A stretch of 64,000 nucleotides of DNA from the NCBI GenBank assembly GCA_944331865.1, contig CALVIZ010000001.1, positions 18,766-82,765 on the forward strand, in the 5' to 3' direction. The stretch's first letter is position 1. Every line of letters starts with the position of its first letter. Source of the stretch: an uncultured Bacilli bacterium. Its GTDB lineage: Bacteria; Bacillota_I; Bacilli_A; RF39; UBA660. The notes under the pieces were generated by a model that saw only the letters and a list, made by a program, of their open reading frames with translations, was not told the origin of the DNA and made no database searches. The translations under genes were made by a program, and so were the position numbers. Below are positions 38,366-53,647 of this stretch, piece after piece.

Positions 38366-38373
38366 TTATTTAC

Positions 38374-38448
38374 GCAGGTGTAGTACAATGGCTAGTATAC
38401 GACCTTGCCAAGGTTGAGATGGGAGTTCGATCCTCCTCACTTGCTCCA
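38374..38448 (+). tRNA. tRNA-Gly (anticodon GCC), CCA encoded
   Basis: Manual cloverleaf. Acceptor GCAGGTG/CACTTGC, D-stem GTAC/GTAT, anticodon stem CGACC/GGTTG with loop TTGCCAA, T-arm GGGAG-TTCGATC-CTCCT, discriminator T plus CCA. 75 nt. Confidence 0.9.
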
Positions 38449-38487
38449 TAAGGTAAAATCGTCGCACCAATGTGACGTTAATGATTA

Positions 38488-38513
38488 AATCAACTGAAAA
38501 GTTGATTTTTTTT
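38488..38513 (+). terminator. rho-independent terminator of the tRNA
   Basis: AATCAAC-6 nt-GTTGATT followed by T6. Confidence 0.7.
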
Positions 38514-38540
38514 GTTAAAAGAAAGGATTGGTGTGATATA

Positions 38541-38813
38541 ATGATTAAAATAATAAAAAAGAAAATCAATATGAGTGATGAACTCAAAGCCAAAATTAAT
38601 TGGTCTTGCAAATTTAATAAGAAATCCTATCAAATAATTGAAGGATTCTTACGTATTGTGGAACATACCAATTTAGCTTATGTAGAGCCACATAAGGTTA
38701 TAATAAATAACCAATTATATTTATTCTTTAACGAACAAAAATACTTTTACATAGGGAATCTACAAAATAAGATTCCATTGTCTGAATTATCAGAGTACAT
38801 AGCAAGGCATTAA
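38541..38813 (+). CDS. hypothetical small protein
   Basis: 90 aa counted from the ATG at 38541; the track ORF starts inside the tRNA terminator. No recognisable motif and a weak RBS. Confidence 0.3.
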   Translation: MIKIIKKKINMSDELKAKINWSCKFNKKSYQIIEGFLRIVEHTNLAYVEPHKVIINNQLYLFFNEQKYFYIGNLQNKIPLSELSEYIARH

Positions 38814-38874: not shown

Positions 38875-40765
<1,891 letters not shown>

Positions 40766-40783
40766 AAAGGAATTGATTAAATT

Positions 40784-41137
40784 ATGAATATTAAATATAT
40801 ACAAGTAGGAGATTATTTATTACCAAACTTAATAATAAAAAAAGAAACTTTTCAGCAAATTGGAAAGTACGGTTATTTAAGATTAAATTATATTAAGAAA
40901 TATAAAAAAGGATTATATCAATCATTATTAATGAAAAACGAATTAACAAAACATCTTCTTTCAGTCAGTAATGAATGTGAAGAAAGATTAAATGAATTAA
41001 TGGATAATTATATTAAAATTGATGAAAGACTATCTGAAAAAAATAAGGAAATAAATCAAATTGAATGGGTAAAATTGATGAATAATTACAAAAATATGGC
41101 TGAAGAAATTATATTAAAGGAGTTAATCTATGTTTGA
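40784..41137 (+). CDS. tnpV: TnpV-family transposon protein
   Basis: 117 aa. 'YIQVGDYLLPNL...GKYGYLRLNYIKKYKKGLYQSLLMKNELTKHL...WVKLMNNYKNMAEEIILKELIY' matches the TnpV pattern of Tn4451-type elements as I recall it. Confidence 0.7.
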   Translation: MNIKYIQVGDYLLPNLIIKKETFQQIGKYGYLRLNYIKKYKKGLYQSLLMKNELTKHLLSVSNECEERLNELMDNYIKIDERLSEKNKEINQIEWVKLMNNYKNMAEEIILKELIYV

Positions 41138-41158
41138 TATTATTTATAAGCAAGCAAC

Positions 41159-41185
41159 GGATTTATACTCCCACCATATAAATCC
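41159..41185 (+). promoter_or_regulatory. candidate oriT hairpin upstream of the relaxase gene
   Basis: Perfect 9-bp inverted repeat GGATTTATA-CTCCCACCA-TATAAATCC, 27 nt before the relaxase ATG. Confidence 0.4.
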
Positions 41186-41211
41186 ACTTTTTAGAAAGGA
41201 TAAACCTTTGT

Positions 41212-42516
41212 ATGGCAACAACTTCAATTTGGAGTATTAAAAATAATTTAAAACAATCTATAAATTATATCATCAACCCAAAGAAAACAATTAATAAAGA
41301 TTATGGTAAAGACACTTATAATTATCTTGAACTTAACGATAACGAGTATAATTTTAAACAAGAAAAAGTATGTTATGTTAGTTGCATAAATTGTTCTGAA
41401 AATAATCCTTATGATGATATGAAGTTTACAAAAGAACAATATGGAAAAATAGATGGTATCCTTGCTTTTCACGGTTATCAGTCTTTTAAAGAAGGAGAAG
41501 TAACTGCTAATATTGCACACGAAATTGGAGTTAAGTTTGCAGAAGAAATGTTTGGAGATTATGAAGTGGTTGTTGCTACCCATCAAAATACTAATCATAT
41601 ACACAATCATTTTATACTGAACTCCGTTTCATTTAAAACTGGAAAGAAATATAATAACAATAGAACTAATTTAGCAAAATTAAGACAAATATCAGATTCA
41701 ATTTGTGCAGAATATGGATTAAGTGTTCTTGAAGAAGATGTTGGTTATAAAAATACCTGTAAATATAAAATTTTAAATAATGATTATTATAAAATAATGA
41801 AAGAAGATTTAGATAATGTCATAAGTTATTCAGTTACTCTTAAACAAGTTATAGAACGACTTAAAAAAATAGATTATCAGGTATATTCTCGTAATGGTAT
41901 AATAACTATTTATAAAGATGGATATGATAAAGTTAGAATAGAAAAAGCATTTGGTAATGATTATTCAATAGATAGTATAAATAAGCGATTATATTCATCC
42001 AGACAAATTATATTTAAACCTTTAACACAAAGAATTATCTTTGAAGAATATTCTAAAACTGATAAACATCATAAAGGTATATATGGCTTATATTTATATT
42101 ATTGTTATTTATTAAAAGTCTTTCCAGAAAAGCATCCTAAACAATATTTACCTTATTCAATTAGACAGGATATAAAAAAGATGAATCAAATATCTGAAGA
42201 AACAAGATTTATGGTAAAAAATAATATTGAAACTATTGATGATTTAAAAGCATTTTCTAAAAATAATTATCAAGAATATAGTTTACTAATGAGTAAAAGA
42301 GAAAATCTTTGGAAACAATATCATAGAGCAAAAAATGAAGAGGATAAATCTAAAATACTCACTGAAATAAATAATATTCAACCATTAATTAAAGAACTTC
42401 GCAAACTGAAAAATTATTGCAATAATATTGAAGAACGTTCTAAAATTATACAAAATAATATTAATAATTTCGATAAAGATTTAAACAAAGAAAAAGACAA
42501 TTCTAGGTGTTTATAA
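41212..42516 (+). CDS. relaxase/mobilisation nuclease (MobA/VirD2 family)
   Basis: 434 aa. N-terminus 'MATTSIWSIKNNLKQSINYIINPKKT' and the histidine triad 'HQNTNHIHNHFILNSV'. Confidence 0.8.
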   Translation: MATTSIWSIKNNLKQSINYIINPKKTINKDYGKDTYNYLELNDNEYNFKQEKVCYVSCINCSENNPYDDMKFTKEQYGKIDGILAFHGYQSFKEGEVTANIAHEIGVKFAEEMFGDYEVVVATHQNTNHIHNHFILNSVSFKTGKKYNNNRTNLAKLRQISDSICAEYGLSVLEEDVGYKNTCKYKILNNDYYKIMKEDLDNVISYSVTLKQVIERLKKIDYQVYSRNGIITIYKDGYDKVRIEKAFGNDYSIDSINKRLYSSRQIIFKPLTQRIIFEEYSKTDKHHKGIYGLYLYYCYLLKVFPEKHPKQYLPYSIRQDIKKMNQISEETRFMVKNNIETIDDLKAFSKNNYQEYSLLMSKRENLWKQYHRAKNEEDKSKILTEINNIQPLIKELRKLKNYCNNIEERSKIIQNNINNFDKDLNKEKDNSRCL

Positions 42517-42532
42517 CATGATTGTCTTTTTT
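42493..42532. terminator. hairpin between the convergent relaxase and restriction genes
   Basis: AAAGACAAT-19 nt-ATTGTCTTT followed by a T-run. The large loop lowers confidence. Confidence 0.4.
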
Positions 42533-42534
42533 AT

Positions 42535-44301
42535 TTATACATCAATTAATTTTATTTCTGAATTTTGAGTAATTAAGTTGTAAACTTGTTCCATATCAAT
42601 AAATTTGGATTTTATATTTTCAGCAAGAATTAATAAGTTTACTACATTTAAAGCCCCACCATTAATTTTGGTAGATTGTGCAATATTTTCTAATTTTTCT
42701 TCAAATTGGCCGTTAAATTCACTTGATACAAATAGGAAACTAAATTTATTTAATAAATCGGGAAAATTATTCCACCATTTGTTTGAATTTATTTTTACAT
42801 CTCTTTTATTGTTTTCCTCCACATATCTTCTCATTTCATCAGCCTGTGAAATTGGTAATGAATATCCTTTAGAGTATGCTTTAGTATCAATAATAGTTCC
42901 ATAGTTTTCCTTTAAATTTTCGGTATAGATTATTCCGTCAGGTTTTCTTCCACCACCTAGATGAATGCCTTTATAACCACATTCTGAAACAAATAGGTCA
43001 ACAACTTCCATTTCAAATTGTCTATTTGATTTTGGATCATATGCTAAATCAATTAAATTAAGATAATTGTGAGATATATTTTCAAGCATGTCTCTACAAA
43101 AATCTTTTAACCTTAATGTATCGCTTTTGCCACTTCCAATAGAGTTAATAGGAATAACTAAATTTTGAATATCATCATTTAATATGAAACCATTACTAGA
43201 TTCTTTAACAAATAATCCTATATTTTGTAAACCAATTAGATCATCCCTAATTGTTTCAATAGACTCTTCAAATTCTACTTCTTTTAATTTTTCTTGTAGT
43301 TTTGTTAAAGAGAGTGGAGAATTAGAATCCGATAAAAATTTTATCAAATATGCGCGCCTATTTCTTATATAATATCTATCAGTTGCTTTAGTACATAGCA
43401 TTTCCCAAAACACATTTTTTGGGAGCCTTGAAACTTTATTAATCCCTTGCAATTTTCTATAAGCTTTTAATCCATCAGGTGTAATTAAATATGCTTGTCC
43501 TAGTTTTTCTGTGTATTCTTTGTTACCAACTATAACTTTATATTCTTTTTCAACTTGTCTAACTAATCCTAATTTTTGAAGCCATTTACATATTTGTCTA
43601 GCATATTTGTCTGATGAACCATCCCAATCAGATTTCATTTTATTCTTTTCTTTCAAATCATCTGTCATAGCAAGAGATGTAAGTAATATGTTTTGAGGTA
43701 GCGAGGTAAAACCTTCATCTCCTACAAAACCTAGTTTACTACCAATTTCAAATTTTGATAAATGTTCTCCATTTGATAAAAGTTGTAAAATTCTTGAAAC
43801 TGGTGGATATTTTAAAATAGCATTTAATAAACATTCTTTTTCTTCGTTAGAATTATTTTCAGTCTTTGAATATGCTAATCCATCTTCAGTAATTTCAAAG
43901 GTATCATCTTCACCGTTATATTTTATAAATCCACACAAATGAGCCCATCTTAAAAAACTATCAGAAGCCCAATCCGTTATATAAGGTTTTACTTGACCAC
44001 AAACTGAAGCTTGTATAATTGAATTACATTGAGAATTTTTACGAGGAATTGAGTGTGTTCCAACAAGATCTGCATATGTAATTTTTAAAGGTTTAGATTT
44101 TAAAATTGTTTGAAATTTTTCTACTAAATTTCTATCATCAACAAGCATTGGTAATCTAGCAATAATTAAGTTCTCATGAAATTTAGATTTATTATCAAAA
44201 ATTTGAACAACATTTTTTAAACTGTTGAAATCTGAAGCATCTTGTGACCATCCAAATGATCTTTTTGATGAATATTTTGTTGATAATTCTATATTACTCA
44301 T
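42535..44301 (-). CDS. FokI-like type IIS restriction endonuclease
   Basis: 588 aa, collinear with FokI as I recall it: 'SFGW', 'FLRWAH', 'GLAYSK', 'YPPVSRIL', 'GSSDKYAR', and a cleavage domain 'LGGGRKPDGIIY...IIDTKAYSKGYSLPISQADEMRRYVEEN' with the PD...D-x-K residues intact. Confidence 0.9.
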   Translation of the reverse strand: MSNIELSTKYSSKRSFGWSQDASDFNSLKNVVQIFDNKSKFHENLIIARLPMLVDDRNLVEKFQTILKSKPLKITYADLVGTHSIPRKNSQCNSIIQASVCGQVKPYITDWASDSFLRWAHLCGFIKYNGEDDTFEITEDGLAYSKTENNSNEEKECLLNAILKYPPVSRILQLLSNGEHLSKFEIGSKLGFVGDEGFTSLPQNILLTSLAMTDDLKEKNKMKSDWDGSSDKYARQICKWLQKLGLVRQVEKEYKVIVGNKEYTEKLGQAYLITPDGLKAYRKLQGINKVSRLPKNVFWEMLCTKATDRYYIRNRRAYLIKFLSDSNSPLSLTKLQEKLKEVEFEESIETIRDDLIGLQNIGLFVKESSNGFILNDDIQNLVIPINSIGSGKSDTLRLKDFCRDMLENISHNYLNLIDLAYDPKSNRQFEMEVVDLFVSECGYKGIHLGGGRKPDGIIYTENLKENYGTIIDTKAYSKGYSLPISQADEMRRYVEENNKRDVKINSNKWWNNFPDLLNKFSFLFVSSEFNGQFEEKLENIAQSTKINGGALNVVNLLILAENIKSKFIDMEQVYNLITQNSEIKLIDV

Positions 44302-45184
44302 TTTCTACCTCCCCATAATTTGTAATTAAAACTTCAATTGTATCATTTTTATTTTTTCTTCTATAATTAGAATTATTAAATGTATTTTCTATTATATAAA
44401 CATTATATTTTTTTGACCACTCAGTTAAAACTTCGTTTTTCCTATTATTAGCGATTAGTACATTTGATAATGCAAATTTTATTTTCCTAGAATTTAAGTT
44501 ATCTAATATATTTAATAATTGTTTTTCATCATCAACTGTCCAATCTTTTACACCTCTATTGCCGTCATTATAACTACCAGTCGTAATTAAATATGGTGGA
44601 TCACAATAAACGAAATCATCTTCTCCCAATTTAGAAAAATCAAAATCTACAAATTTTTCTTTTGAAATTTTTATGTTAATATTGTTTATTTTATCAACAA
44701 ATTGTTTTAAATTTTTCTTTGTATTTTGATTATAGCAACTTCTATTTTTTCCAAATGGTGTATTATATTTCATATTTTGATTAAATCTTATTTGATAATT
44801 AAAACTATACAAAATTAAAGTGTAAAAATCTAAAACTCTTTCATCAATATTTTCATATATATAATGATTATATTTGTTTCTTAATTTTAAAAATGCTTCT
44901 GAATTTTCTTTATTCAAATTATTAAAATTAATATTATCTTCAAGTTTATCAATCACTTCATTAGCTGTATTATCAGAAAAGTAATTCATTAATTCACATA
45001 ATGGCTCAATTACATCATTATAAATTACGGTTTCAGCATCAACATTAATTCCTACATTAAATCCACCACCAAATAAATCAACAAATGTATTTATTTTTTT
45101 AGGAAATTTGGGAATTATTTGATTTAATATTTTATATTTACCACCAACATAATTTAATGGAGATTTTATATATACCTCACTCAT
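44294..45184 (-). CDS. Dam-like (D12 class, alpha-group) N6-adenine DNA methyltransferase
   Basis: 'SPLNYVGGKYKIL', 'FVDLFGGGFNVG', 'YCDPPY'. Overlaps the R gene start by 8 nt. Likely start is the ATG at 45184 after GGTGA. Confidence 0.85.
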   Translation of the reverse strand: MSEVYIKSPLNYVGGKYKILNQIIPKFPKKINTFVDLFGGGFNVGINVDAETVIYNDVIEPLCELMNYFSDNTANEVIDKLEDNINFNNLNKENSEAFLKLRNKYNHYIYENIDERVLDFYTLILYSFNYQIRFNQNMKYNTPFGKNRSCYNQNTKKNLKQFVDKINNINIKISKEKFVDFDFSKLGEDDFVYCDPPYLITTGSYNDGNRGVKDWTVDDEKQLLNILDNLNSRKIKFALSNVLIANNRKNEVLTEWSKKYNVYIIENTFNNSNYRRKNKNDTIEVLITNYGEVENE

Positions 45185-45185
45185 C

Positions 45186-45893
45186 TTAATCACCATTTAT
45201 CCTTTTTATAGAGGAATTAAAATATTTTTCATCTAATTCAAAACCAATATAATTTCTATTAGTTTTAATGGCACTAATTGCGGTTGTTCCTGACCCCATA
45301 AAAGGGTCTAAAATCAAATCGTCTTTATTACTATGTATTTTTATTAGATATTCTATTAATTTTAACGGTTTTTGCGTTGGATGATATCTTTTGCAACCAC
45401 CACCACTTTCAGATGGAATGGAAATAACACTGCTTTCATATTTAGCGTTTTGTCTGTTATACGTCCATTTTCCAGGTTTTACAAACCAAATAATCATTTC
45501 TATATCTGGAACATACCTTCTATCTCTATTTCTAGGCATTGGATTAGTCTTTTTCCAAATTAATGTATCTTTATAAACAAAACCTAAATTTTGTGCATAA
45601 TTAATAATTTCTGTCGCTTTTTTAAAGTCATTAAAAACTAATAAAGAACCACCTTTATTTAATAATTCATAAGATTTTTTTATCCAAGGTTTATTATTAA
45701 ATTCCTTATCCCATTCGCCAAAATCAGTTCCTTTTCTAGGATTTTTTCTATCTTTCATTGTATGAAATTGAGATTTCTTTGATATTACGTATGGAGGGTC
45801 TGCAATAATTAAATCAACTTTTAAGTTTTCTTTAATCATTTTATTCATACCTTTGTTACAATCGATATTATAAATATTATTGATTTTCATCAT
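45186..45893 (-). CDS. beta-group N4/N6 DNA methyltransferase (DPPY first, FxGxG last)
   Basis: 'LIIADPPYV' near the N-terminus and 'LDPFMGSGTTAISA...NYIGFELDEKY' near the C-terminus. RBS GGGAGGTG. Start is the ATG at 45893 or 45890. Confidence 0.85.
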   Translation of the reverse strand: MMKINNIYNIDCNKGMNKMIKENLKVDLIIADPPYVISKKSQFHTMKDRKNPRKGTDFGEWDKEFNNKPWIKKSYELLNKGGSLLVFNDFKKATEIINYAQNLGFVYKDTLIWKKTNPMPRNRDRRYVPDIEMIIWFVKPGKWTYNRQNAKYESSVISIPSESGGGCKRYHPTQKPLKLIEYLIKIHSNKDDLILDPFMGSGTTAISAIKTNRNYIGFELDEKYFNSSIKRINGD

Positions 45894-45994
45894 TACACCT
45901 CCCAAACAAGAACATTATAACTAATAAAATTATACTATAAAACCGCTAATTATTCTAGATTTTCCCAAATATTTATAAAAAAAGATGGTAAAAG

Positions 45995-46003
45995 TGATAT
46001 AAT
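45995..46003 (+). promoter_or_regulatory. extended -10 element (TGaTATAAT) for the AAA_13 ATPase gene
   Basis: TG at 45995-45996 and TATAAT at 45998-46003, about 32 nt upstream of the ATG at 46035. No good -35 element. Confidence 0.35.
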
Positions 46004-46034
46004 ATTATGCAAACAACTTTTGGGCGGTGATAGT

Positions 46035-48224
46035 ATGAAATTCGAGTTTTTTAATTATGAAACAAAGAAAAAAATTAACTTTGAAACAGAAAAACATTTA
46101 ATAGCAATATATGGTAAAAATGGTAGTGGTAAAACGACATTTAGTAGAATTAATTTATTTGATAGTAAATATGTATTTAACGAGGATTTTATATATTCTA
46201 ATGTTTTTAATGTATCAGAAAAAGGATTTACTCAAACATCCATAACTAAAGAAAATTTTTCTGGTTTATGGTTAGGAGAAAATATTGTTAAAATTAGACA
46301 AGAAATTTCAAAAATTAGAGAACAGGAAAAAGAAATAAAGGAAAATTATCAGCAAATAGCAAGTAAATATGTAAAATTTTTTTCTGAACAAGGTATCCCA
46401 TTTAATTACGAGCAAAAAACAAAAGAAATTAAAAATGATAACTTCAATTTAACTGATGAAGATATTACTGTTCAAGCAAGCAAGTACATTGCTTCTTACA
46501 CATTTAAGACAGATATCAAAAATAAAACTGAACTAAAAGAAAAAATTAATTATTTAAAGAAAAATGATATATATAATAATTTGATTTTAAAAATACAAAA
46601 TAATAAATTATTAAGTGAATTACTATTAAAAGAGAAAAATAATTATGTTACTATTTTAAATAAGAGAATTGATATACTAAAAAAGAACCAAGAAATAATA
46701 AAGAAAACAGAAAATATATTTAAAGAAGATGAAATAACTGATGATATTAAAATAAAAGTACATGAATGGTATTTAATACACGAAAATAAAGATCATTGCA
46801 TTTTTTGCGGAAATAAAAATATAAATGATTCGTTAGAAAAGTGGAAAACAGTATTTACTAATACAAATATAATAGAAAAACAAGATATTATTAAAGATTT
46901 GGATAATATAATAGATGATTGTACTAAAATTGTAAATGAAAAAATATACAAATCAGTAGATGAAGAAATAATTGATTACATAAATACTATAACTGAAAAA
47001 ATTAAAATAGCAAAATCTATGATTGAAATAGGAATTTATGAAAATATTAATTTTGATTTAAATATAAAAAATATTAAAATAATAGAGATAAGGGAGTTAA
47101 CAAATAATATTATTAATTATTCCATGAATCTATCAATTAATAGTATAGAATTTTATTATAATGCCCAATTATATAACGAGAATTTAAGAAAAACTAAAAC
47201 TAATGAATTAGATAAATTAATGGATACTGAGGGAGAAATAATTGCTAGAAATATTAATGATATATTTAAGAATTTAGGGTTAAACAAAAATATAAATATT
47301 ACTGTTGATAAACACTCTGTTCCACATAAATTTGCTTATAGTATTACAAATCATAAGGATGTCAATGAGTTGAGTGATGGTCAAAAGCATAAATTAGCAC
47401 TTGCGATTTTTATAAATTCTATAATAAATGATGATTTAACAAATAAGGTAATTGTTATAGACGATCCTGTTGTTTCATTAGATATTTCAAGTTATATATT
47501 GTTTAAACAATTTCTTGTTTCAGAATTAATAAAAGAAAAATTTAAGGATTCAACTAAACTAATATTGTTAACACATGACATTACTTATCTTTACATTCAA
47601 CTTTCAAATATTTTTAATGATAATAATATGAAAAATGATACTTGTGTGTATAAGTTATCTAGTGACAAAATTTCTGAAATACCAATTGATTATATTAAAA
47701 CTGATGATATATCATTATTTAAATTAGCACTTTCAAAATGTTCAAATATTCAAGAATTAAAAAGTTTAAATGTAATAACTAATAAAATTTTTAGAATAAT
47801 TATTGATATACGATTAAGATTTTATGGAATATCTGATACTTCTGAAGTTGGTCATCAATTACTACCTATTGATAATGACAAAAAAGAACTGCTACAAACA
47901 TACAGCAATCATTTATCTAAAGTATCGAGACAAAATAATCCGATATTATGTGATATATATAATAGTATTTTATACATTAAAAACACTGCCGAATTATTTG
48001 GAATTAATGATTTTATTAGCAATAAAGAACTAAATAACATAAAAAATATTATTAGCAACAACATAAATGGAAATATTAGTGATGATATTTTCAATGTAAT
48101 TAATTCAATAAGCAGTTTCTTAAAGAAAACAACAAATAAAGAAATGAAAGGATATGTAGAACATACACGTGTTTCTTATACAAGAAATTTAATAGGTTTA
48201 AGTTTAGATGACTTTTTTGAATAA
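46035..48224 (+). CDS. AAA_13-type ABC ATPase with long coiled-coil insert and CxxC motif (PrrC/RloC-like putative anticodon-nuclease defence protein)
   Basis: Walker A 'GKNGSGKTTF', then about 410 aa of K/E/I/N-rich helical insert containing 'DHCIFCGNK'. Signature 'LSDGQKHKLALA', Walker B 'VIVIDDPVVSLD', 'LLTHD'. About 230 aa C-terminal domain of unknown fold. Start is the ATG at 46035 after GGCGGTGA. Confidence 0.6.
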   Translation: MKFEFFNYETKKKINFETEKHLIAIYGKNGSGKTTFSRINLFDSKYVFNEDFIYSNVFNVSEKGFTQTSITKENFSGLWLGENIVKIRQEISKIREQEKEIKENYQQIASKYVKFFSEQGIPFNYEQKTKEIKNDNFNLTDEDITVQASKYIASYTFKTDIKNKTELKEKINYLKKNDIYNNLILKIQNNKLLSELLLKEKNNYVTILNKRIDILKKNQEIIKKTENIFKEDEITDDIKIKVHEWYLIHENKDHCIFCGNKNINDSLEKWKTVFTNTNIIEKQDIIKDLDNIIDDCTKIVNEKIYKSVDEEIIDYINTITEKIKIAKSMIEIGIYENINFDLNIKNIKIIEIRELTNNIINYSMNLSINSIEFYYNAQLYNENLRKTKTNELDKLMDTEGEIIARNINDIFKNLGLNKNINITVDKHSVPHKFAYSITNHKDVNELSDGQKHKLALAIFINSIINDDLTNKVIVIDDPVVSLDISSYILFKQFLVSELIKEKFKDSTKLILLTHDITYLYIQLSNIFNDNNMKNDTCVYKLSSDKISEIPIDYIKTDDISLFKLALSKCSNIQELKSLNVITNKIFRIIIDIRLRFYGISDTSEVGHQLLPIDNDKKELLQTYSNHLSKVSRQNNPILCDIYNSILYIKNTAELFGINDFISNKELNNIKNIISNNINGNISDDIFNVINSISSFLKKTTNKEMKGYVEHTRVSYTRNLIGLSLDDFFE

Positions 48225-48335
48225 TGTCTATTGATTTTTAAATGTTTATCATATATAATTTATTTAGTTGATTTAATCCATCTTGGGAGTGTAATTTTTC
48301 TTATACGTGTATAGTTAAGGCTCCATTTAAAAATA

Positions 48336-48373
48336 ACTTACGAACTTTTTATTGTTCGTAAGTTTTTATTTTA
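48336..48373. terminator. bidirectional rho-independent terminator
   Basis: ACTTACGAAC-8 nt-GTTCGTAAGT followed by TTTTTATTTT on +, and T-rich on the other strand as well. Confidence 0.7.
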
Positions 48374-48921: not shown

Positions 48922-50271
48922 TTATTTATTTTTACCATTTATTTTAGGAATCTCTATTATACTACTCATTGCTTGACACATATTATATTTACTTAAATTG
49001 CCATCTCTTTTTAAAGTTTGGAAAATATCGACTAATTCTTCTTTATAAATTTTAATTAGATTATATATTTCATTACAACCATTATTTTGTTCAACTTGTT
49101 GCAATAATTCATTTCTAGACATTCCTACATAAGACATTAATGAATGAAAAGCTATATAATTTTTATCAGTTTCTGATAAATTACTTTTATATTTCATAAT
49201 ATCTATATAATATATTGGCAAATTCATTTCTGAAGAAAGCATTATAGCATCTTGATAATCGATATTTAAATCACTTTCTCCCAGTCCTATAACCACTATT
49301 GCACAAGGTTTAGCATTAACAAGCACCTCATTATAGCAACTAGATGAATATATATCTTCACCATTTTTAATTGCCCTTGCTTTACCAATTTTTTCTAAAG
49401 CTTGTGGTGTAACGAGAATAGTTCCTTTTTCTTTATTAACTGATCCTTCTCCAAAAACATTAGAACCAAGATCATATGCACTAGCCATAATTATGTCTGA
49501 ATTACTTGGATAAATAAATCCAATTTTTCTAGTTTCATCCCCATAAGTTGCTATAAAATTAGAACTAATCATACTGCATGAGGATTGATTAGGACGATTT
49601 ATTAACCGTATAGCGCCATCTCTTAAAGTACCACCCGAAATATTTGAAAATAAAAATCTAAAATTATTATTTTCATTTATTTCATTTGTCAATGACCTTG
49701 CCCAAATAGAATTTATAATTTCTTTATATTTTAATTCAAGTATTTTAATATTTGCAATACCCATATTCAGACTTATACAATCAACTATTATACTATTTAT
49801 TTGATTATCACCAATTAAGGCTCTATATTCAGTATTAGTAATCAAAGATTTTAAAGATTCAACTGCAAGATATAATCCTTCTTTACCTTGAATTCCTTCA
49901 TAATTGTTTTTTATAAAATCAACATCGACAATTTTACTTAAAACACTATTATATAAATTTATAATACGATTAAATTTGGTAATTATTTCATTATCACTTA
50001 AATCAATACCATCGATTTCATTTTTTAAATTTTCCAATTCAGGAATGCTATTAATTACAATACTTTCAAAACCATATTTTAATCTAATAATTCCAATTAA
50101 AGCTACTAACCTATCATAAAGCAATTTTAAATTTGTATCGGAAGCATTTTTTATTGCATTTTCAATAGAATATATATAGTCCATGTCTTTATCTAAATTT
50201 TCATTACTATTATATTTCCATGTTTCTTTTTCAAAATTAAAAATTAAATCTAACAAATCTTTTTTCAACAT
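48922..50271 (-). CDS. hypothetical protein, no recognisable family
   Basis: 449 aa and soluble. Helical N-terminal half and a mixed alpha/beta C-terminal half. No motif I can assign. Confidence 0.5.
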   Translation of the reverse strand: MLKKDLLDLIFNFEKETWKYNSNENLDKDMDYIYSIENAIKNASDTNLKLLYDRLVALIGIIRLKYGFESIVINSIPELENLKNEIDGIDLSDNEIITKFNRIINLYNSVLSKIVDVDFIKNNYEGIQGKEGLYLAVESLKSLITNTEYRALIGDNQINSIIVDCISLNMGIANIKILELKYKEIINSIWARSLTNEINENNNFRFLFSNISGGTLRDGAIRLINRPNQSSCSMISSNFIATYGDETRKIGFIYPSNSDIIMASAYDLGSNVFGEGSVNKEKGTILVTPQALEKIGKARAIKNGEDIYSSSCYNEVLVNAKPCAIVVIGLGESDLNIDYQDAIMLSSEMNLPIYYIDIMKYKSNLSETDKNYIAFHSLMSYVGMSRNELLQQVEQNNGCNEIYNLIKIYKEELVDIFQTLKRDGNLSKYNMCQAMSSIIEIPKINGKNK

Positions 50272-52600: not shown

Positions 52601-53647
52601 TTATAATATAATCCAAAATCCGTTCTTTTTACCATTTTTTCTAGTAATTAACCCTTTATTTTGCATTTCAGTCATTCTTGTTTTTACTGTTCTTAAAGAT
52701 TTATTAATAATCCCCGCAATTTCTTCTTGAGTAATCGAAGGATTGTTTTTTATTATATTAATAATAGCTTGTTCTTCTAAAGTATACTTGATATTTTCAT
52801 TATTTTCTTCTGTTTGATTTTTATAATCAACATGAGTATATCTATTTTTTAGTTCATAATTGGTATCCGTTAAAAGATTATAAAAGAATTTTTCTAAAAA
52901 TGATATATCTTCAAATACATTTTTTTCATAATTTTTATAATTAGCTCTAACTAATGAATTTCTAAAATACCATGAATGTTTAGCAAAAGCATCATCATTA
53001 ATATCAAAACCAAATGTTTTTAAATATTTAATAATAAATACTGCAACAGAGCGAGTATTACCTTCACAAAAAGGATGAATTTGCCATATGTTAGAAGTAA
53101 ATTTACATAAATGTTTTATCGCTTCATCGAGAGTTTTATCTTTATATGAATATTCTTTTTCCTCATCAAAATCATATTTTAAAGCTGCTTCAATTGTTTC
53201 AAAAGATGCATAAGTAACTGTATCACCATTTAAAACCCATTCGTTTTTTATAAAGTTATAATCTCTTATTTTTCCAGCATCCTTAAAGATTCCTGAAAAT
53301 AATCTTTTGTGAATATTAATTAATTCAGTTGGATTAAATGTAAAAGATTTTTCACTTAATAATTCGATAATTCTTACAGAAACTTTATCGGCTTCTTCAC
53401 TAGCCTCTTCAAGTGTTCTATTATCTAATACTTTATAATATTGATTAATTCTTTTTTCTGCTTCTTTTAAATCAATATTACCTTCAATATGTTCTTTGGC
53501 GGTTTCAATTAAATATTTCGATGGTTTTAATCCATCAACATCTTGAAGGCCAATAGCAATTTCCCAATTTTTAGCTTTCTCTACAGTATTATCTTCAGAA
53601 CTTTTTATATATTCTGATAATTCTAAATTCCATTTTTCTTTTTCCAT
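52601..53647 (-). CDS. Fic-family protein with N-terminal VbhA-like segment and C-terminal winged HTH
   Basis: 348 aa. Fic motif 'HPFCEGNTRSVA'. N-terminal 'WEIAIGLQDVDGLKPSKYLIE..' aligns to the VbhA antitoxin motif region. C-terminal 'ITQEEIAGIINKSLRTVKTRMTEMQNKGLI'. Confidence 0.75.
   Translation of the reverse strand: MEKEKWNLELSEYIKSSEDNTVEKAKNWEIAIGLQDVDGLKPSKYLIETAKEHIEGNIDLKEAEKRINQYYKVLDNRTLEEASEEADKVSVRIIELLSEKSFTFNPTELINIHKRLFSGIFKDAGKIRDYNFIKNEWVLNGDTVTYASFETIEAALKYDFDEEKEYSYKDKTLDEAIKHLCKFTSNIWQIHPFCEGNTRSVAVFIIKYLKTFGFDINDDAFAKHSWYFRNSLVRANYKNYEKNVFEDISFLEKFFYNLLTDTNYELKNRYTHVDYKNQTEENNENIKYTLEEQAIINIIKNNPSITQEEIAGIINKSLRTVKTRMTEMQNKGLITRKNGKKNGFWIIL

What the first reader, a model, noticed from the sequence alone, without database searches (positions are those of the whole stretch)
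46035..48224. PrrC/RloC-like AAA_13 ATPase divergently paired with a type IIS (not type I) R-M system
The sequence shows a 729-aa protein with split ABC ATPase motifs: Walker A 'GKNGSGKTT' at the N-terminus, then 'LSDGQ', 'VIVIDDP' and 'LLTHD' about 410 aa later. The two halves are separated by a long charged helical insert carrying a CxxC ('CIFCG'). A ~230-aa C-terminal domain follows, containing 'FRIIIDIRLRFYG...SNHLS'. Established knowledge: PrrC is an ABC-ATPase-fused anticodon nuclease embedded in a type Ic R-M locus and acts as a backup when phage disables restriction. RloC is its larger relative with a Rad50-like coiled-coil and zinc-hook insert. The R-x3-D...H spacing here loosely echoes the PrrC Arg/Glu/His nuclease triad, but I cannot verify the alignment. 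Pairing of such a protein with a FokI-type IIS system through a shared 130-bp divergent promoter region, on a mobile element, would extend the R-M guardian paradigm.
Basis: partly seen in the sequence, partly recalled or inferred. Interest (0 to 1): 0.7.

Follow-up and report, generated by a model that had tools for sequence, protein, structure and literature searches.

The report
RloC-like defence ATPase, novel effector domain
The gene encodes a Rad50-like "zinc-hook" ATPase whose front part is clearly related to the bacterial anti-phage tRNA-cutting enzyme RloC. Its tail is an uncharacterised domain found only in this small family, and relatives sit next to many different restriction-modification systems, so it is probably a mobile single-gene backup defence rather than a dedicated partner of the neighbouring FokI-type system.

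Summary
**Observation:** it is real. ORF 46035-48224 (+) encodes a 729-aa protein with every quoted motif. It lies 129 bp from, and divergent to, an intact FokI-like type IIS R-M system on a ~9.5-kb mobilisable element.

**N-terminal module:** residues 1-520 are homologous to labelled RloC (hhalign 99.6%, E 1e-23), with the CxxC hooks aligned.

**C-terminal domain:** residues ~530-729 do not match RloC's nuclease domain (hhalign 0.2%; score no better than shuffles). They also match no Pfam or PADLOC model and no PDB or viral fold. A profile search of 1.84 billion proteins finds the domain only in this ~730-aa family (78 clusters).

**Conserved core:** D557-D558, K/R584, R587, D591, R595, G598, Y707, H710, R712, T716.

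**Best reading:** an RloC-type, self-regulated, DNA-break-sensing single-gene defence with a new effector domain, probably a nuclease. This is a new variant of a known kind.

The parts
46035..48224 (+). Gene for the 729-aa RloC-like AAA_13 protein (stop codon included)
   Evidence: ORF. Pfam AAA_13 59 bits, E 5e-16. About 140 full-length homologues. AF2 model mean pLDDT 87.6.
46035..46277 (+). ABC ATPase N-lobe (residues 1-81), with Walker A GKNGSGKTT (residues 27-35, nt 46113-46139) and the clade motif VFNEDF
   Evidence: G27, N29, G30, G32 and K33 are invariant. Aligned to RloC's DNGRGKST and VFDxDF by hhalign. Foldseek hits to Rad50/SMC heads.
46278..47276 (+). Coiled-coil insert (residues ~82-414) with the apical CxxC zinc hook C255-I-F-C258 (nt 46797-46808)
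   Evidence: Long helices 82-249 and 264-414, with the loop 250-263 holding the CxxC. C255 is 100% and C258 99% conserved. Aligned to RloC's CPxC.
47277..47618 (+). ABC ATPase C-lobe (residues 415-528): signature LSDGQ 446-450, Walker B VIVIDDP 472-478, D-loop SLD 481-483, H-loop TH 513-514
   Evidence: Invariant S447, G449, D476, D477, P478, D483 and H514. hhalign to RloC ends here.
47622..48221 (+). Family-specific all-helical C-terminal domain (residues 530-729), the putative effector. Conserved D557-D558, K/R584, R587, D591, R595, G598, Y707, H710, R712, T716.
   Evidence: AF2 pLDDT 87.5, pTM 0.83. Conservation. No PDB or BFVD fold match. No Pfam, PADLOC or PDB sequence match. Found only in this family among 1.84e9 representative proteins.
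45995..46030 (+). The gene's own expression signals: extended -10 TGaTATAAT (45995-46003) and SD GGTGA (46026-46030)
   Evidence: Sequence. A TATAAT at the same distance from the ATG is kept in relatives with a different upstream cassette.
48335..48364 (.). Bidirectional intrinsic terminator (11-bp stem) after the gene, at the right end of the element
   Evidence: 2 sites found against 0.3 expected. Homology to L001 ends at 48344.
42535..45905 (-). FokI-like type IIS R-M cassette, a swappable neighbour and not part of the protein's conserved unit: REase 42535-44301, D12 MTase 44294-45196, N6_N4 MTase 45186-45905
   Evidence: Pfam FokI_D1/dom_2/D3/cleavage, MethyltransfD12 and N6_N4_Mtase. PADLOC REase_II E 1e-169. 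Replaced by other genes in L021/L022 between window positions 42531 and 45979.
38876..42516 (+). Backbone of the mobilisable element: large serine recombinase, TnpV, MobA/VirD2 relaxase. The whole element spans 38876-48344.
   Evidence: Pfam Resolvase+Recombinase, TnpV and Relaxase. Boundaries from blastn against L001, which has different flanks.

Best explanation
The gene encodes a single-protein defence module of the RloC type, carried as cargo on a small mobilisable element.

**Shown**
- Residues 1-528 form a Rad50/SMC-like ABC ATPase head, split by a long antiparallel coiled coil tipped with a CxxC zinc hook.
- This module is homologous to that of RloC.
- Residues 530-729 form a separate helical domain unique to this family. 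Its strictly conserved polar core is D557-D558, K/R584, R587, D591, R595, H710, R712 and T716.
- The gene has its own promoter and terminator and no conserved partner gene.
- It is found again and again directly beside R-M systems of many unrelated types, and on mobile elements.

**Inferred**
- As in RloC, the hook plus the DNA-dependent ATPase act as an internal switch. The switch keeps the C-terminal effector off until the head meets DNA ends or breaks, for example during phage attack or when restriction is under way or failing.
- ATP-driven head engagement then switches on the effector.
- The effector is most likely a nuclease or phosphodiesterase that stops growth or translation (abortive infection). 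An RNase or tRNase is the leading guess but is unproven.
- The FokI-like system next door is one of many interchangeable first-line partners, not a dedicated silencer.
For: **Head homology**
- hhalign of the family against labelled RloC: 99.6%, E 1.3e-23, 467 columns. The P-loop, VFNEDF/VFDxDF, CxxC, signature, IDDPxxSLD and H-loop all align.
- Foldseek top hits are Rad50/SMC heads.
- Pfam AAA_13. PADLOC PDC-S06 is the same as DefenseFinder RloC.

**Distinct effector domain**
- Confident AF2 model.
- Conserved charged core in 95 non-redundant members.
- K584, R587, D591 and R595 are spaced i, i+3, i+7, i+11, so they lie on one helix face. This is read directly from the sequence and the helix 582-596.

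**Single-gene unit**
- No conserved neighbouring ORF across contexts.
- Own -10, SD and terminator.

**Defence context: 9 of 16 independent neighbourhoods have an adjacent R-M or R-M-like module**
- FokI.
- Type I.
- AlwI.
- C5 + NgoFVII-like.
- BglII-like + MT-A70 at a prophage end.
- C5 + MTaX1.
- Eco57I-type.
- The other neighbourhoods sit by AAA_21+RloB, Fic, GmrSD, HEPN or Schlafen genes on integrative or mobilisable elements.

**RloC precedent for the switch**
- Zinc hook plus DNA-break-responsive ATPase; activation by DSB inducers even in an R-M-deficient host (PMC3458546, PMC3874168).
Against: - There is no experimental evidence for this family.
- The effector chemistry is not established. 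There is no similarity to any nuclease by HMM, profile-profile or fold search.
- The HEPN-like [KR]-N-x3-H preceding H710 is only 70% and 55% conserved.
- The context sample is small, was chosen for long contigs and is not phylogenetically weighted. Seven of 16 contexts have no adjacent R-M.
- The PADLOC hits cover the ATPase only, so current defence finders may not call the gene at all.
Confidence: 0.6

Rival explanations
1. It is a true but highly diverged RloC/PrrC-type anticodon nuclease. On this view the C-domain is a HEPN-like ACNase domain with an ~70-80-aa helical insertion. R587-x3-D591 would correspond to R-x3-E, and [KR]705-N706-x3-H710 to the HEPN R-x-N-x3-H. The protein would cut or excise tRNA anticodon nucleotides.
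For: - Same head as RloC.
- R-x3-acidic on a helix ~73 aa after the H-loop, against 77 aa in labelled RloC, and followed in both by R-F-x-G.
- N706-x3-H710 matches the spacing of PrrC N352-x3-H356.
- The domain is all-helical, like HEPN (PMC3710099).
- R-M linkage as for PrrC and for rloC in Campylobacter.
Against: - hhalign C-domain against RloC C-domain: 0.2% probability, with the motifs not aligned.
- The sub-region score is matched or beaten by 11 of 100 column shuffles.
- The C-domain profile finds no RloC or PrrC among 1.84e9 proteins.
- No HEPN or other hit in Pfam, PADLOC, PDB or Foldseek.
- The acidic residue is Asp in 96% of members, whereas PrrC does not tolerate substitutions of Glu324.
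- The spacing to the His is 118, against the defining 36-52.
- K/R705 and N706 are poorly conserved.
- The upstream His conserved in PrrC and RloC (H295/H650) has no counterpart: H710 is the only conserved His.
Confidence: 0.25
2. One reading: a PrrC-style guardian that is physically held inactive by the adjacent FokI-like R-M proteins and is released when a phage inhibits them. The shared divergent promoter would couple the expression of the two.
For: - Immediate divergent adjacency in the window and in P0002 loci.
- The whole intergenic region is conserved among FokI-carrying relatives.
- The PrrC precedent.
Against: - 85%-identical genes in the same element backbone lack the R-M and have a helicase + Schlafen cassette instead.
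- Partners elsewhere span at least 7 unrelated R-M architectures, and 7 of 16 contexts have none, which is hard to reconcile with a specific protein-protein silencer.
- The protein has the RloC-type internal switch (hook + coiled coil), which PrrC lacks.
- The gene keeps its own -10 whichever cassette is present.
Confidence: 0.08
3. An anti-restriction sensor of the PARIS type. The ABC head would detect phage anti-restriction proteins or DNA mimics rather than DNA ends, which would explain why the gene travels with R-M systems.
For: - ABC-ATPase sensors of this kind exist; the embedding paper discusses PARIS or Gabija triggered by the anti-defence protein Ocr.
- Strong R-M adjacency.
Against: - The partners include many type II systems, for which broad DNA-mimic inhibitors are not the typical counter-defence (general knowledge, not tested).
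- The head is specifically RloC/Rad50-like with a zinc hook, and the documented trigger for that architecture is DNA or DSBs.
- There is no direct evidence either way.
Confidence: 0.07
4. Not a defence gene: a Rad50/SbcC-like DNA-handling or maintenance factor of the mobile element, involved in transfer, repair or stabilisation.
For: - Pfam notes that many AAA_13 proteins are on conjugative elements (general knowledge).
- The family is almost always on integrative or mobilisable elements.
Against: - It is in variable cargo positions of unrelated element types (serine recombinase, tyrosine integrase/Mob_Pre, prophage end, conjugative element), not in their core.
- It also follows chromosomal type I operons.
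- There is no Mre11/SbcD-type partner nearby.
- A conserved extra catalytic-looking C-domain is present.
Confidence: 0.05

Closest known systems
RloC (wobble-nucleotide-excising anticodon nuclease; COG4694; DefenseFinder RloC = PADLOC PDC-S06)
   Same: - Size class: 729 aa, within 658-897.
- ABC ATPase split by a coiled coil with a CxxC zinc hook.
- IDDPxxSLD Walker B/D-loop and the H-loop.
- hhalign 99.6% over residues 6-520.
- Single-gene, laterally mobile, sometimes R-M linked.
   Different: - The C-terminal domain is not detectably homologous.
- R-x3-D...x118...H instead of R-x3-E-x36-52-H.
- No counterpart of the upstream conserved His.
- R-M adjacency is much more frequent here: 9 of 16 sampled contexts, against 8 of 72 reported for RloC.
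PrrC (EcoPrrC tRNA-Lys anticodon nuclease in the type Ic prr locus)
   Same: - Same ABC clade motifs (Walker A, IDDP, SLD, TH).
- C-terminal effector fused in cis.
- Life next to an R-M system.
- R-x3-acidic and N-x3-H motif spacings are reminiscent.
   Different: - PrrC is ~400 aa with no coiled coil or hook.
- PrrC is always embedded in type Ic hsd and silenced by it.
- This protein has the hook, its partners are diverse or absent, and its C-domain is unrelated at detectable level.
Rad50 / SbcC / SMC heads
   Same: - Best structural matches of the full model.
- Zinc hook at the coiled-coil apex.
   Different: - Much shorter coiled coil.
- No Mre11/SbcD partner.
- An extra C-terminal domain follows the H-loop.
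Other ABC-ATPase + effector defence proteins (ABC-HEPN such as APECO1_4465 and ERFG_01251; OLD/PARIS/Gabija/Septu ABC + Toprim or HNH)
   Same: - The general logic: an ABC sensor coupled to a toxic effector, located in defence islands, R-M loci or prophages.
   Different: - The effector here is neither Toprim nor a recognisable HEPN.
- Only weak PADLOC hits to PtuA and mad3, limited to the ATPase.

Membership tests
RloC | ABC ATPase motifs (Walker A, signature, Walker B/D-loop, H-loop) shared with PrrC | tested here: met
   Invariant GxNGxGK(T/S), SxGQ, IDDP, SLD and TH. Aligned to labelled RloC.
RloC | Coiled-coil insert with a central CxxC zinc hook splitting the ATPase | tested here: met
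   C255/C258 conserved at 99% or more, in the loop between long helices. Aligned with RloC CPxC.
RloC | Size 658-897 aa | tested here: met
   729 aa here; the family ranges 694-770 aa. Range taken from PMC2610378.
RloC | C-terminal Arg-X3-Glu-X36-52-His ACNase triad (Ser often before His) | tested here: not met
   The conserved set is R587-x3-D591-x118-H710. The His at x34 (H626) is only 24% conserved. The residue before H710 is N, E or R, not S.
RloC | C-terminal domain homologous to the RloC/PrrC nuclease domain | tested here: not met
   hhalign 0.2%. Score at shuffle level. The profile search finds no RloC or PrrC. PDC-S06 models do not hit the C-domain. This is a limit of detection, not proof of non-homology.
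RloC | Anticodon nuclease activity, Zn- and DNA/ATP-regulated | not testable with these tools
   Needs biochemistry.
PrrC | ~400-aa ABC ATPase without a coiled coil, plus an ACNase domain | tested here: not met
   729 aa with a ~330-aa coiled-coil/hook insert.
PrrC | Always embedded in a type Ic hsd locus that silences it | tested here: not met
   In the window it is divergent to a type IIS system. The family has at least 7 kinds of R-M neighbour, or none.
HEPN superfamily | R-x4-6-H motif, with a polar residue after the R | tested here: inconclusive
   [KR]705-N706-Y-x-x-H710 fits R-N-x3-H, but K/R is present in only 70% of members (mostly K) and N in 55%. H710 itself is present in every sequence without a gap at that column (93 of 95).
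HEPN superfamily | Four-helix HEPN fold | tested here: inconclusive
   The domain is all-helical, but Foldseek finds no HEPN or any other significant match in PDB or BFVD. No Pfam HEPN family is hit, even at E up to 10, across 26 members.
Pfam AAA_13 (PF13166) | Score above the gathering threshold | tested here: met
   59 bits against 36. All homologues are annotated PF13166.
Type IIS FokI-like R-M (the neighbour) | FokI recognition subdomains D1-D3 plus the cleavage domain, with two adenine MTases | tested here: met
   All four FokI Pfam domains, plus D12 and N6_N4 MTases. PADLOC REase_II E 1e-169. The PDG...IIDTK catalytic residues are visible in the translation (their identity with the FokI D450/D467/K469 motif is from memory).

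The most novel reading that the evidence does not exclude
The C-terminal domain is a previously unrecognised effector fold. The protein would be a generic 'restriction-coupled' abortive-infection module. Its Rad50-like hooked head would read out DNA ends produced, or left unprocessed, during restriction by any R-M type, and would then fire a new kind of nuclease or toxin. That would explain why it travels beside type I, IIS, IIG and IIP systems alike.
Probability: 0.25. Interest if true: 0.7.

Novelty: new variant of a known kind. Interest (0 to 1): 0.45.

Why it matters
If the model holds, this family shows that the RloC sensor chassis (ABC head plus zinc hook) has been re-equipped with an effector that no current database recognises.

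It would also show that second-line defences associate with restriction systems in general, not only with type I as in the PrrC paradigm.

- **A new candidate catalytic domain.** The invariant residues D558, R587, D591 and H710 are clear targets for mutagenesis.
- **A natural test of partner dependence.** The same element carries either the FokI cassette or the helicase cassette, so one can ask whether such guardians need their R-M neighbour.
- **A gap in defence annotation.** Current defence-system models touch only the ATPase part of the protein.

Tried and rejected
**Fold and sequence searches**
1. Foldseek of the full model against PDB returned only Rad50/SMC heads and no PrrC or RloC structure.
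2. Foldseek of the C-domain model against PDB and BFVD returned nothing (best E 0.23 and 0.38).
3. Pfam at E up to 10 on 26 C-domains, a PDB hmmsearch with the C-domain profile, and PADLOC on the C-domains gave no consistent hit.
4. NCBIfam gave only sub-threshold ABC-transporter hits.

**Looking for a PrrC/RloC reference alignment**
5. The supplement of the HEPN paper held no alignments.

**Profile comparisons**
6. I had noticed by eye that 'FRIIIDIRLRFYG' resembles RloC 'IRPLLEGYLHRRFPG'. I tested this with hhalign and 100 column shuffles and rejected it as unsupported.
7. The 873-aa cousin P0120 was tried as a bridge. It aligns weakly and co-linearly with this family's C-domain (E 0.015) but not with RloC's.

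**Locus and context searches**
8. The first genome-contig scan failed because the P-loop pattern was too generic. The retry without it gave 13 loci.
9. tblastn against plasmids found only distant AAA_13/RloC proteins. Against GenBank phages it found nothing. IMG/VR gave 2 loci.
10. A recurrent Fic partnership was considered and dropped: the Fic genes are only distantly related to each other and at variable distances.
11. A conserved small partner ORF was looked for and none was found.
Full report
**1. The observation**

The window has an ORF at 46020/46035-48224 on the + strand.

- **Start site.** The ATG at 46035 gives 729 aa. It is preceded by a GGTGA Shine-Dalgarno (46026-46030) and an extended -10, TGaTATAAT (45995-46003).
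- **Terminator.** A strong bidirectional terminator lies at 48335-48364.
- **Family.** Pfam AAA_13 is hit above its curated cut-off (59 bits against 36).

On the opposite strand, 129 bp away, lie three genes:

- an N6_N4 MTase (45186-45905)
- a D12/Dam-class MTase (44294-45196)
- a 588-aa REase with all four FokI Pfam domains (42535-44301)

To the left are a large serine recombinase, TnpV and a MobA/VirD2 relaxase. Comparison with a relative that has different flanks shows the mobile unit spans 38876-48344. A tRNA-Gly sits just outside its left end.

The one factual weakness is the proposed catalytic His (section 3).

**2. The head is RloC-like**

- A homology search returned 120 proteins. Nearly all are ~730 aa and AAA_13-annotated, down to 27% identity.
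- In 95 non-redundant members the Walker A, the signature S-x-G-Q, Walker B IDDP, the D-loop SLD, the H-loop TH and both Cys of the CxxC are conserved at 96% or more.
- The AF2 model (pLDDT 87.6) shows an ABC head split by long helices, with the CxxC in the apical loop.
- Its best PDB matches are Rad50 and SMC heads.

For a labelled reference I used a 763-aa plasmid protein from Erwinia, found by tblastn. JGI, UniRef and NCBI name its relatives 'wobble nucleotide-excising tRNase', which is COG4694/RloC. Their alignment shows H650, R672-x3-E676 and H730/H731 as invariant, approximately (x53) the published RloC triad R-x3-E-x36-52-H (PMC2610378).

Profile-profile comparison of the two families gives 99.6% probability, E 1.3e-23, over residues 6-520. 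The hooks and all ATPase motifs are in register.

The weak PADLOC hits are to PDC-S06. DefenseFinder calls the same proteins RloC.

**3. The tail is not recognisably RloC or PrrC**

The hhalign alignment stops at the H-loop. The tests on residues 530-729 gave the following results.

| Test | Result |
|---|---|
| hhalign, C-domain against RloC C-domain | 0.2% probability; catalytic motifs not aligned |
| hhalign, sub-region around R-x3-[D/E]...RFxG | score 12.6; 11 of 100 column shuffles score as high or higher |
| C-domain profile against 1.84 billion representative proteins | 78 hits, essentially all the same ~730-aa architecture or fragments of it; no PrrC-sized or differently built protein |
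| Pfam at E up to 10 on 26 members | nothing consistent |
| PDB sequence profile | nothing consistent |
| PADLOC on C-domains | nothing consistent |
| Foldseek with a confident C-domain model (pLDDT 87.5, pTM 0.83) | nothing in PDB or BFVD |

Conservation in the domain is sharp:

- D557 99%, D558 100%
- K/R584 100% (K 87%)
- R587 100%
- D591 96%
- R595 92%
- G598 97%
- Y707 95%
- H710 98% (the remainder are gaps)
- R712 93%
- T716 92%

An R-x3-D...H set therefore exists, but with 118 residues between Asp and His. The published definition is 36-52 residues after a Glu.

PrrC mutagenesis shows that the residues conserved in PrrC and RloC are H295, R320, E324, R349, N352 and H356 (PMC3025547). 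Here there is no upstream conserved His. The HEPN-like [KR]705-N706-x3-H710 is conserved at only 70% and 55%.

I therefore treat the C-domain as a family-specific putative effector. A very diverged HEPN/ACNase origin is not excluded but is unsupported.

**4. Genomic context**

I examined 16 independent neighbourhoods of family members.

An R-M or R-M-like module is the immediate neighbour in nine:

| Member / locus | Adjacent module | Arrangement |
|---|---|---|
| Window and P0002 | FokI-like type IIS | divergent |
| P0060 | hsdMSR type I | upstream, same strand |
| P0088 | hsdMSR type I | upstream, same strand |
| P0104 | AlwI REase + fused double D12 MTase | 16 bp upstream |
| L029 | C5 MTase + NgoFVII-like REase | upstream |
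| P0099 / L042 | BglII-like REase + MT-A70 MTase | upstream, at the end of a siphovirus prophage |
| L043 | Eco57I-type R and M | upstream |
| P0057 | C5 MTase + MTaX1 | convergent |

Seven have none adjacent. These mostly sit among other defence or mobility genes:

- AAA_21+RloB on a tyrosine-integrase/Mob_Pre element
- Fic, GmrSD and a type IIG-like MTase on a conjugative element
- serine recombinases
- Mob_Pre

The most telling case is L021/L022. The gene is 85% identical and sits in the same recombinase-TnpV-relaxase backbone. The segment equivalent to window 42532-45978 (FokI R, M1, M2) is replaced by a ResIII+HA helicase and a Schlafen/AlbA_2-HATPase_c_4-HTH protein. The upstream DNA differs but keeps a TATAAT at the same distance from the ATG.

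No neighbouring ORF is conserved across contexts.

The family is rare in phage collections: 2 IMG/VR loci and none in GenBank phages. It occurs mainly in gut-type Bacilli, Erysipelotrichaceae, Acholeplasmataceae, Clostridia and some Bacteroidota MAGs.

A caveat applies to the tally. The sample was chosen for long contigs and spread over the tree, and it is not weighted. Still, 9 of 16 is far above any plausible background, and above the 8 of 72 reported for RloC.

**5. Mechanism**

Shown:

- an RloC-homologous hooked ABC head
- a distinct, conserved, charged C-domain fused in cis
- an autonomous transcription unit
- recurrent R-M and defence-island adjacency on mobile DNA

Inferred by analogy with RloC. 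RloC's zinc hook and DNA-break-responsive ATPase form an internal switch. RloC is activated by DSB inducers even without an R-M system (PMC3458546, PMC3874168). By analogy:

- the head senses DNA ends or breaks
- ATP-driven engagement activates the C-domain
- the C-domain then damages a nucleic acid and aborts infection

K584, R587, D591 and R595 fall on one face of helix 582-596. H710, R712 and T716 sit in the loop after helix 702-709. This pattern suits phosphate binding plus acid-base catalysis, but the substrate is unknown.

The diversity of R-M partners argues for a generic signal, DNA ends, rather than a PrrC-like specific protein contact.

**6. Comparison, novelty and verdict**

- **What it works like:** most probably RloC.
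- **Membership:** it meets the head, hook and size criteria of RloC but fails the triad definition and the C-domain homology test. It fails the PrrC criteria outright.
- **Classification:** an RloC-like family with a new effector domain, so a new variant of a known kind.
partly supported. The family call and the R-M link are right. The triad, the ACNase assignment and the idea of a dedicated FokI pairing are not.
- **Interest:** moderate (0.45). The ABC-sensor-plus-swappable-effector theme and R-M-embedded defences are established. The orphan effector domain, the unusually strong and type-agnostic R-M linkage and the natural cassette-swap make it a good experimental target.

Noticed in passing
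window 52601-53647 (-): A 348-aa Fic/DOC-family protein with a C-terminal wHTH. It matches the PADLOC candidate PDC-S72 at E 5e-118. It lies ~4.3 kb outside the element. Fic genes also occur near other family members (L015, L025, L027, L031), but these are only distantly related to each other.
   Followed up: partly
window 48922-50271 (-): A 449-aa ORF immediately right of the element, with no hit in Pfam, PADLOC or NCBIfam. Its function is unknown.
   Followed up: no
window 38374-38448 (+): A tRNA-Gly(GCC) ~430 bp left of the element's left boundary (38876), so a possible integration landmark. The listed 81-aa ORF 38366-38611 (-) overlaps it and is probably spurious.
   Followed up: partly
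L022 3858-8486 and L021 2146-6351: In the same element backbone the FokI R-M slot holds a 1018-aa ResIII helicase with six HA domains and a 450-aa Schlafen AlbA_2/HATPase_c_4/wHTH protein, possibly another defence pair. Their upstream region contains repeated GTCGTAAGAA(A)T motifs.
   Followed up: partly
L004-L007 and L023 (upstream of the AAA_13 gene): In a second clade (51-59% identity) the gene always follows an AAA_21 ATPase + RloB pair (an OLD/PARIS-like two-gene module) on a tyrosine-integrase/Mob_Pre element. That element also carries HEPN, type I and type IIG R-M genes.
   Followed up: partly
L038 6482-11305 / L042: A Paludibacter-type member sits at the distal end of a siphovirus prophage (tail genes upstream). 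It lies after a BglII-like REase + MT-A70 MTase and before a DUF4238 protein, which is a moron-like defence cluster.
   Followed up: partly
P0120 (873 aa): A larger cousin with the same head, CxxC and terminal Y-L-x-H, and a longer C-domain. It aligns co-linearly but weakly with this family (E 0.015) and lacks the Asp equivalent to D591. It may represent a sister family.
   Followed up: partly
P0118 (417 aa): A LacI/periplasmic-binding-domain protein that shares 50% identity with 26% of the query. It is possibly a chimeric or mis-assembled gene call.
   Followed up: no
L034 976-1809 and 662-976: The Pantoea plasmid carrying an RloC gene also encodes an RNase A-like CDI toxin/immunity pair and a second AAA ATPase nearby.
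   Followed up: no
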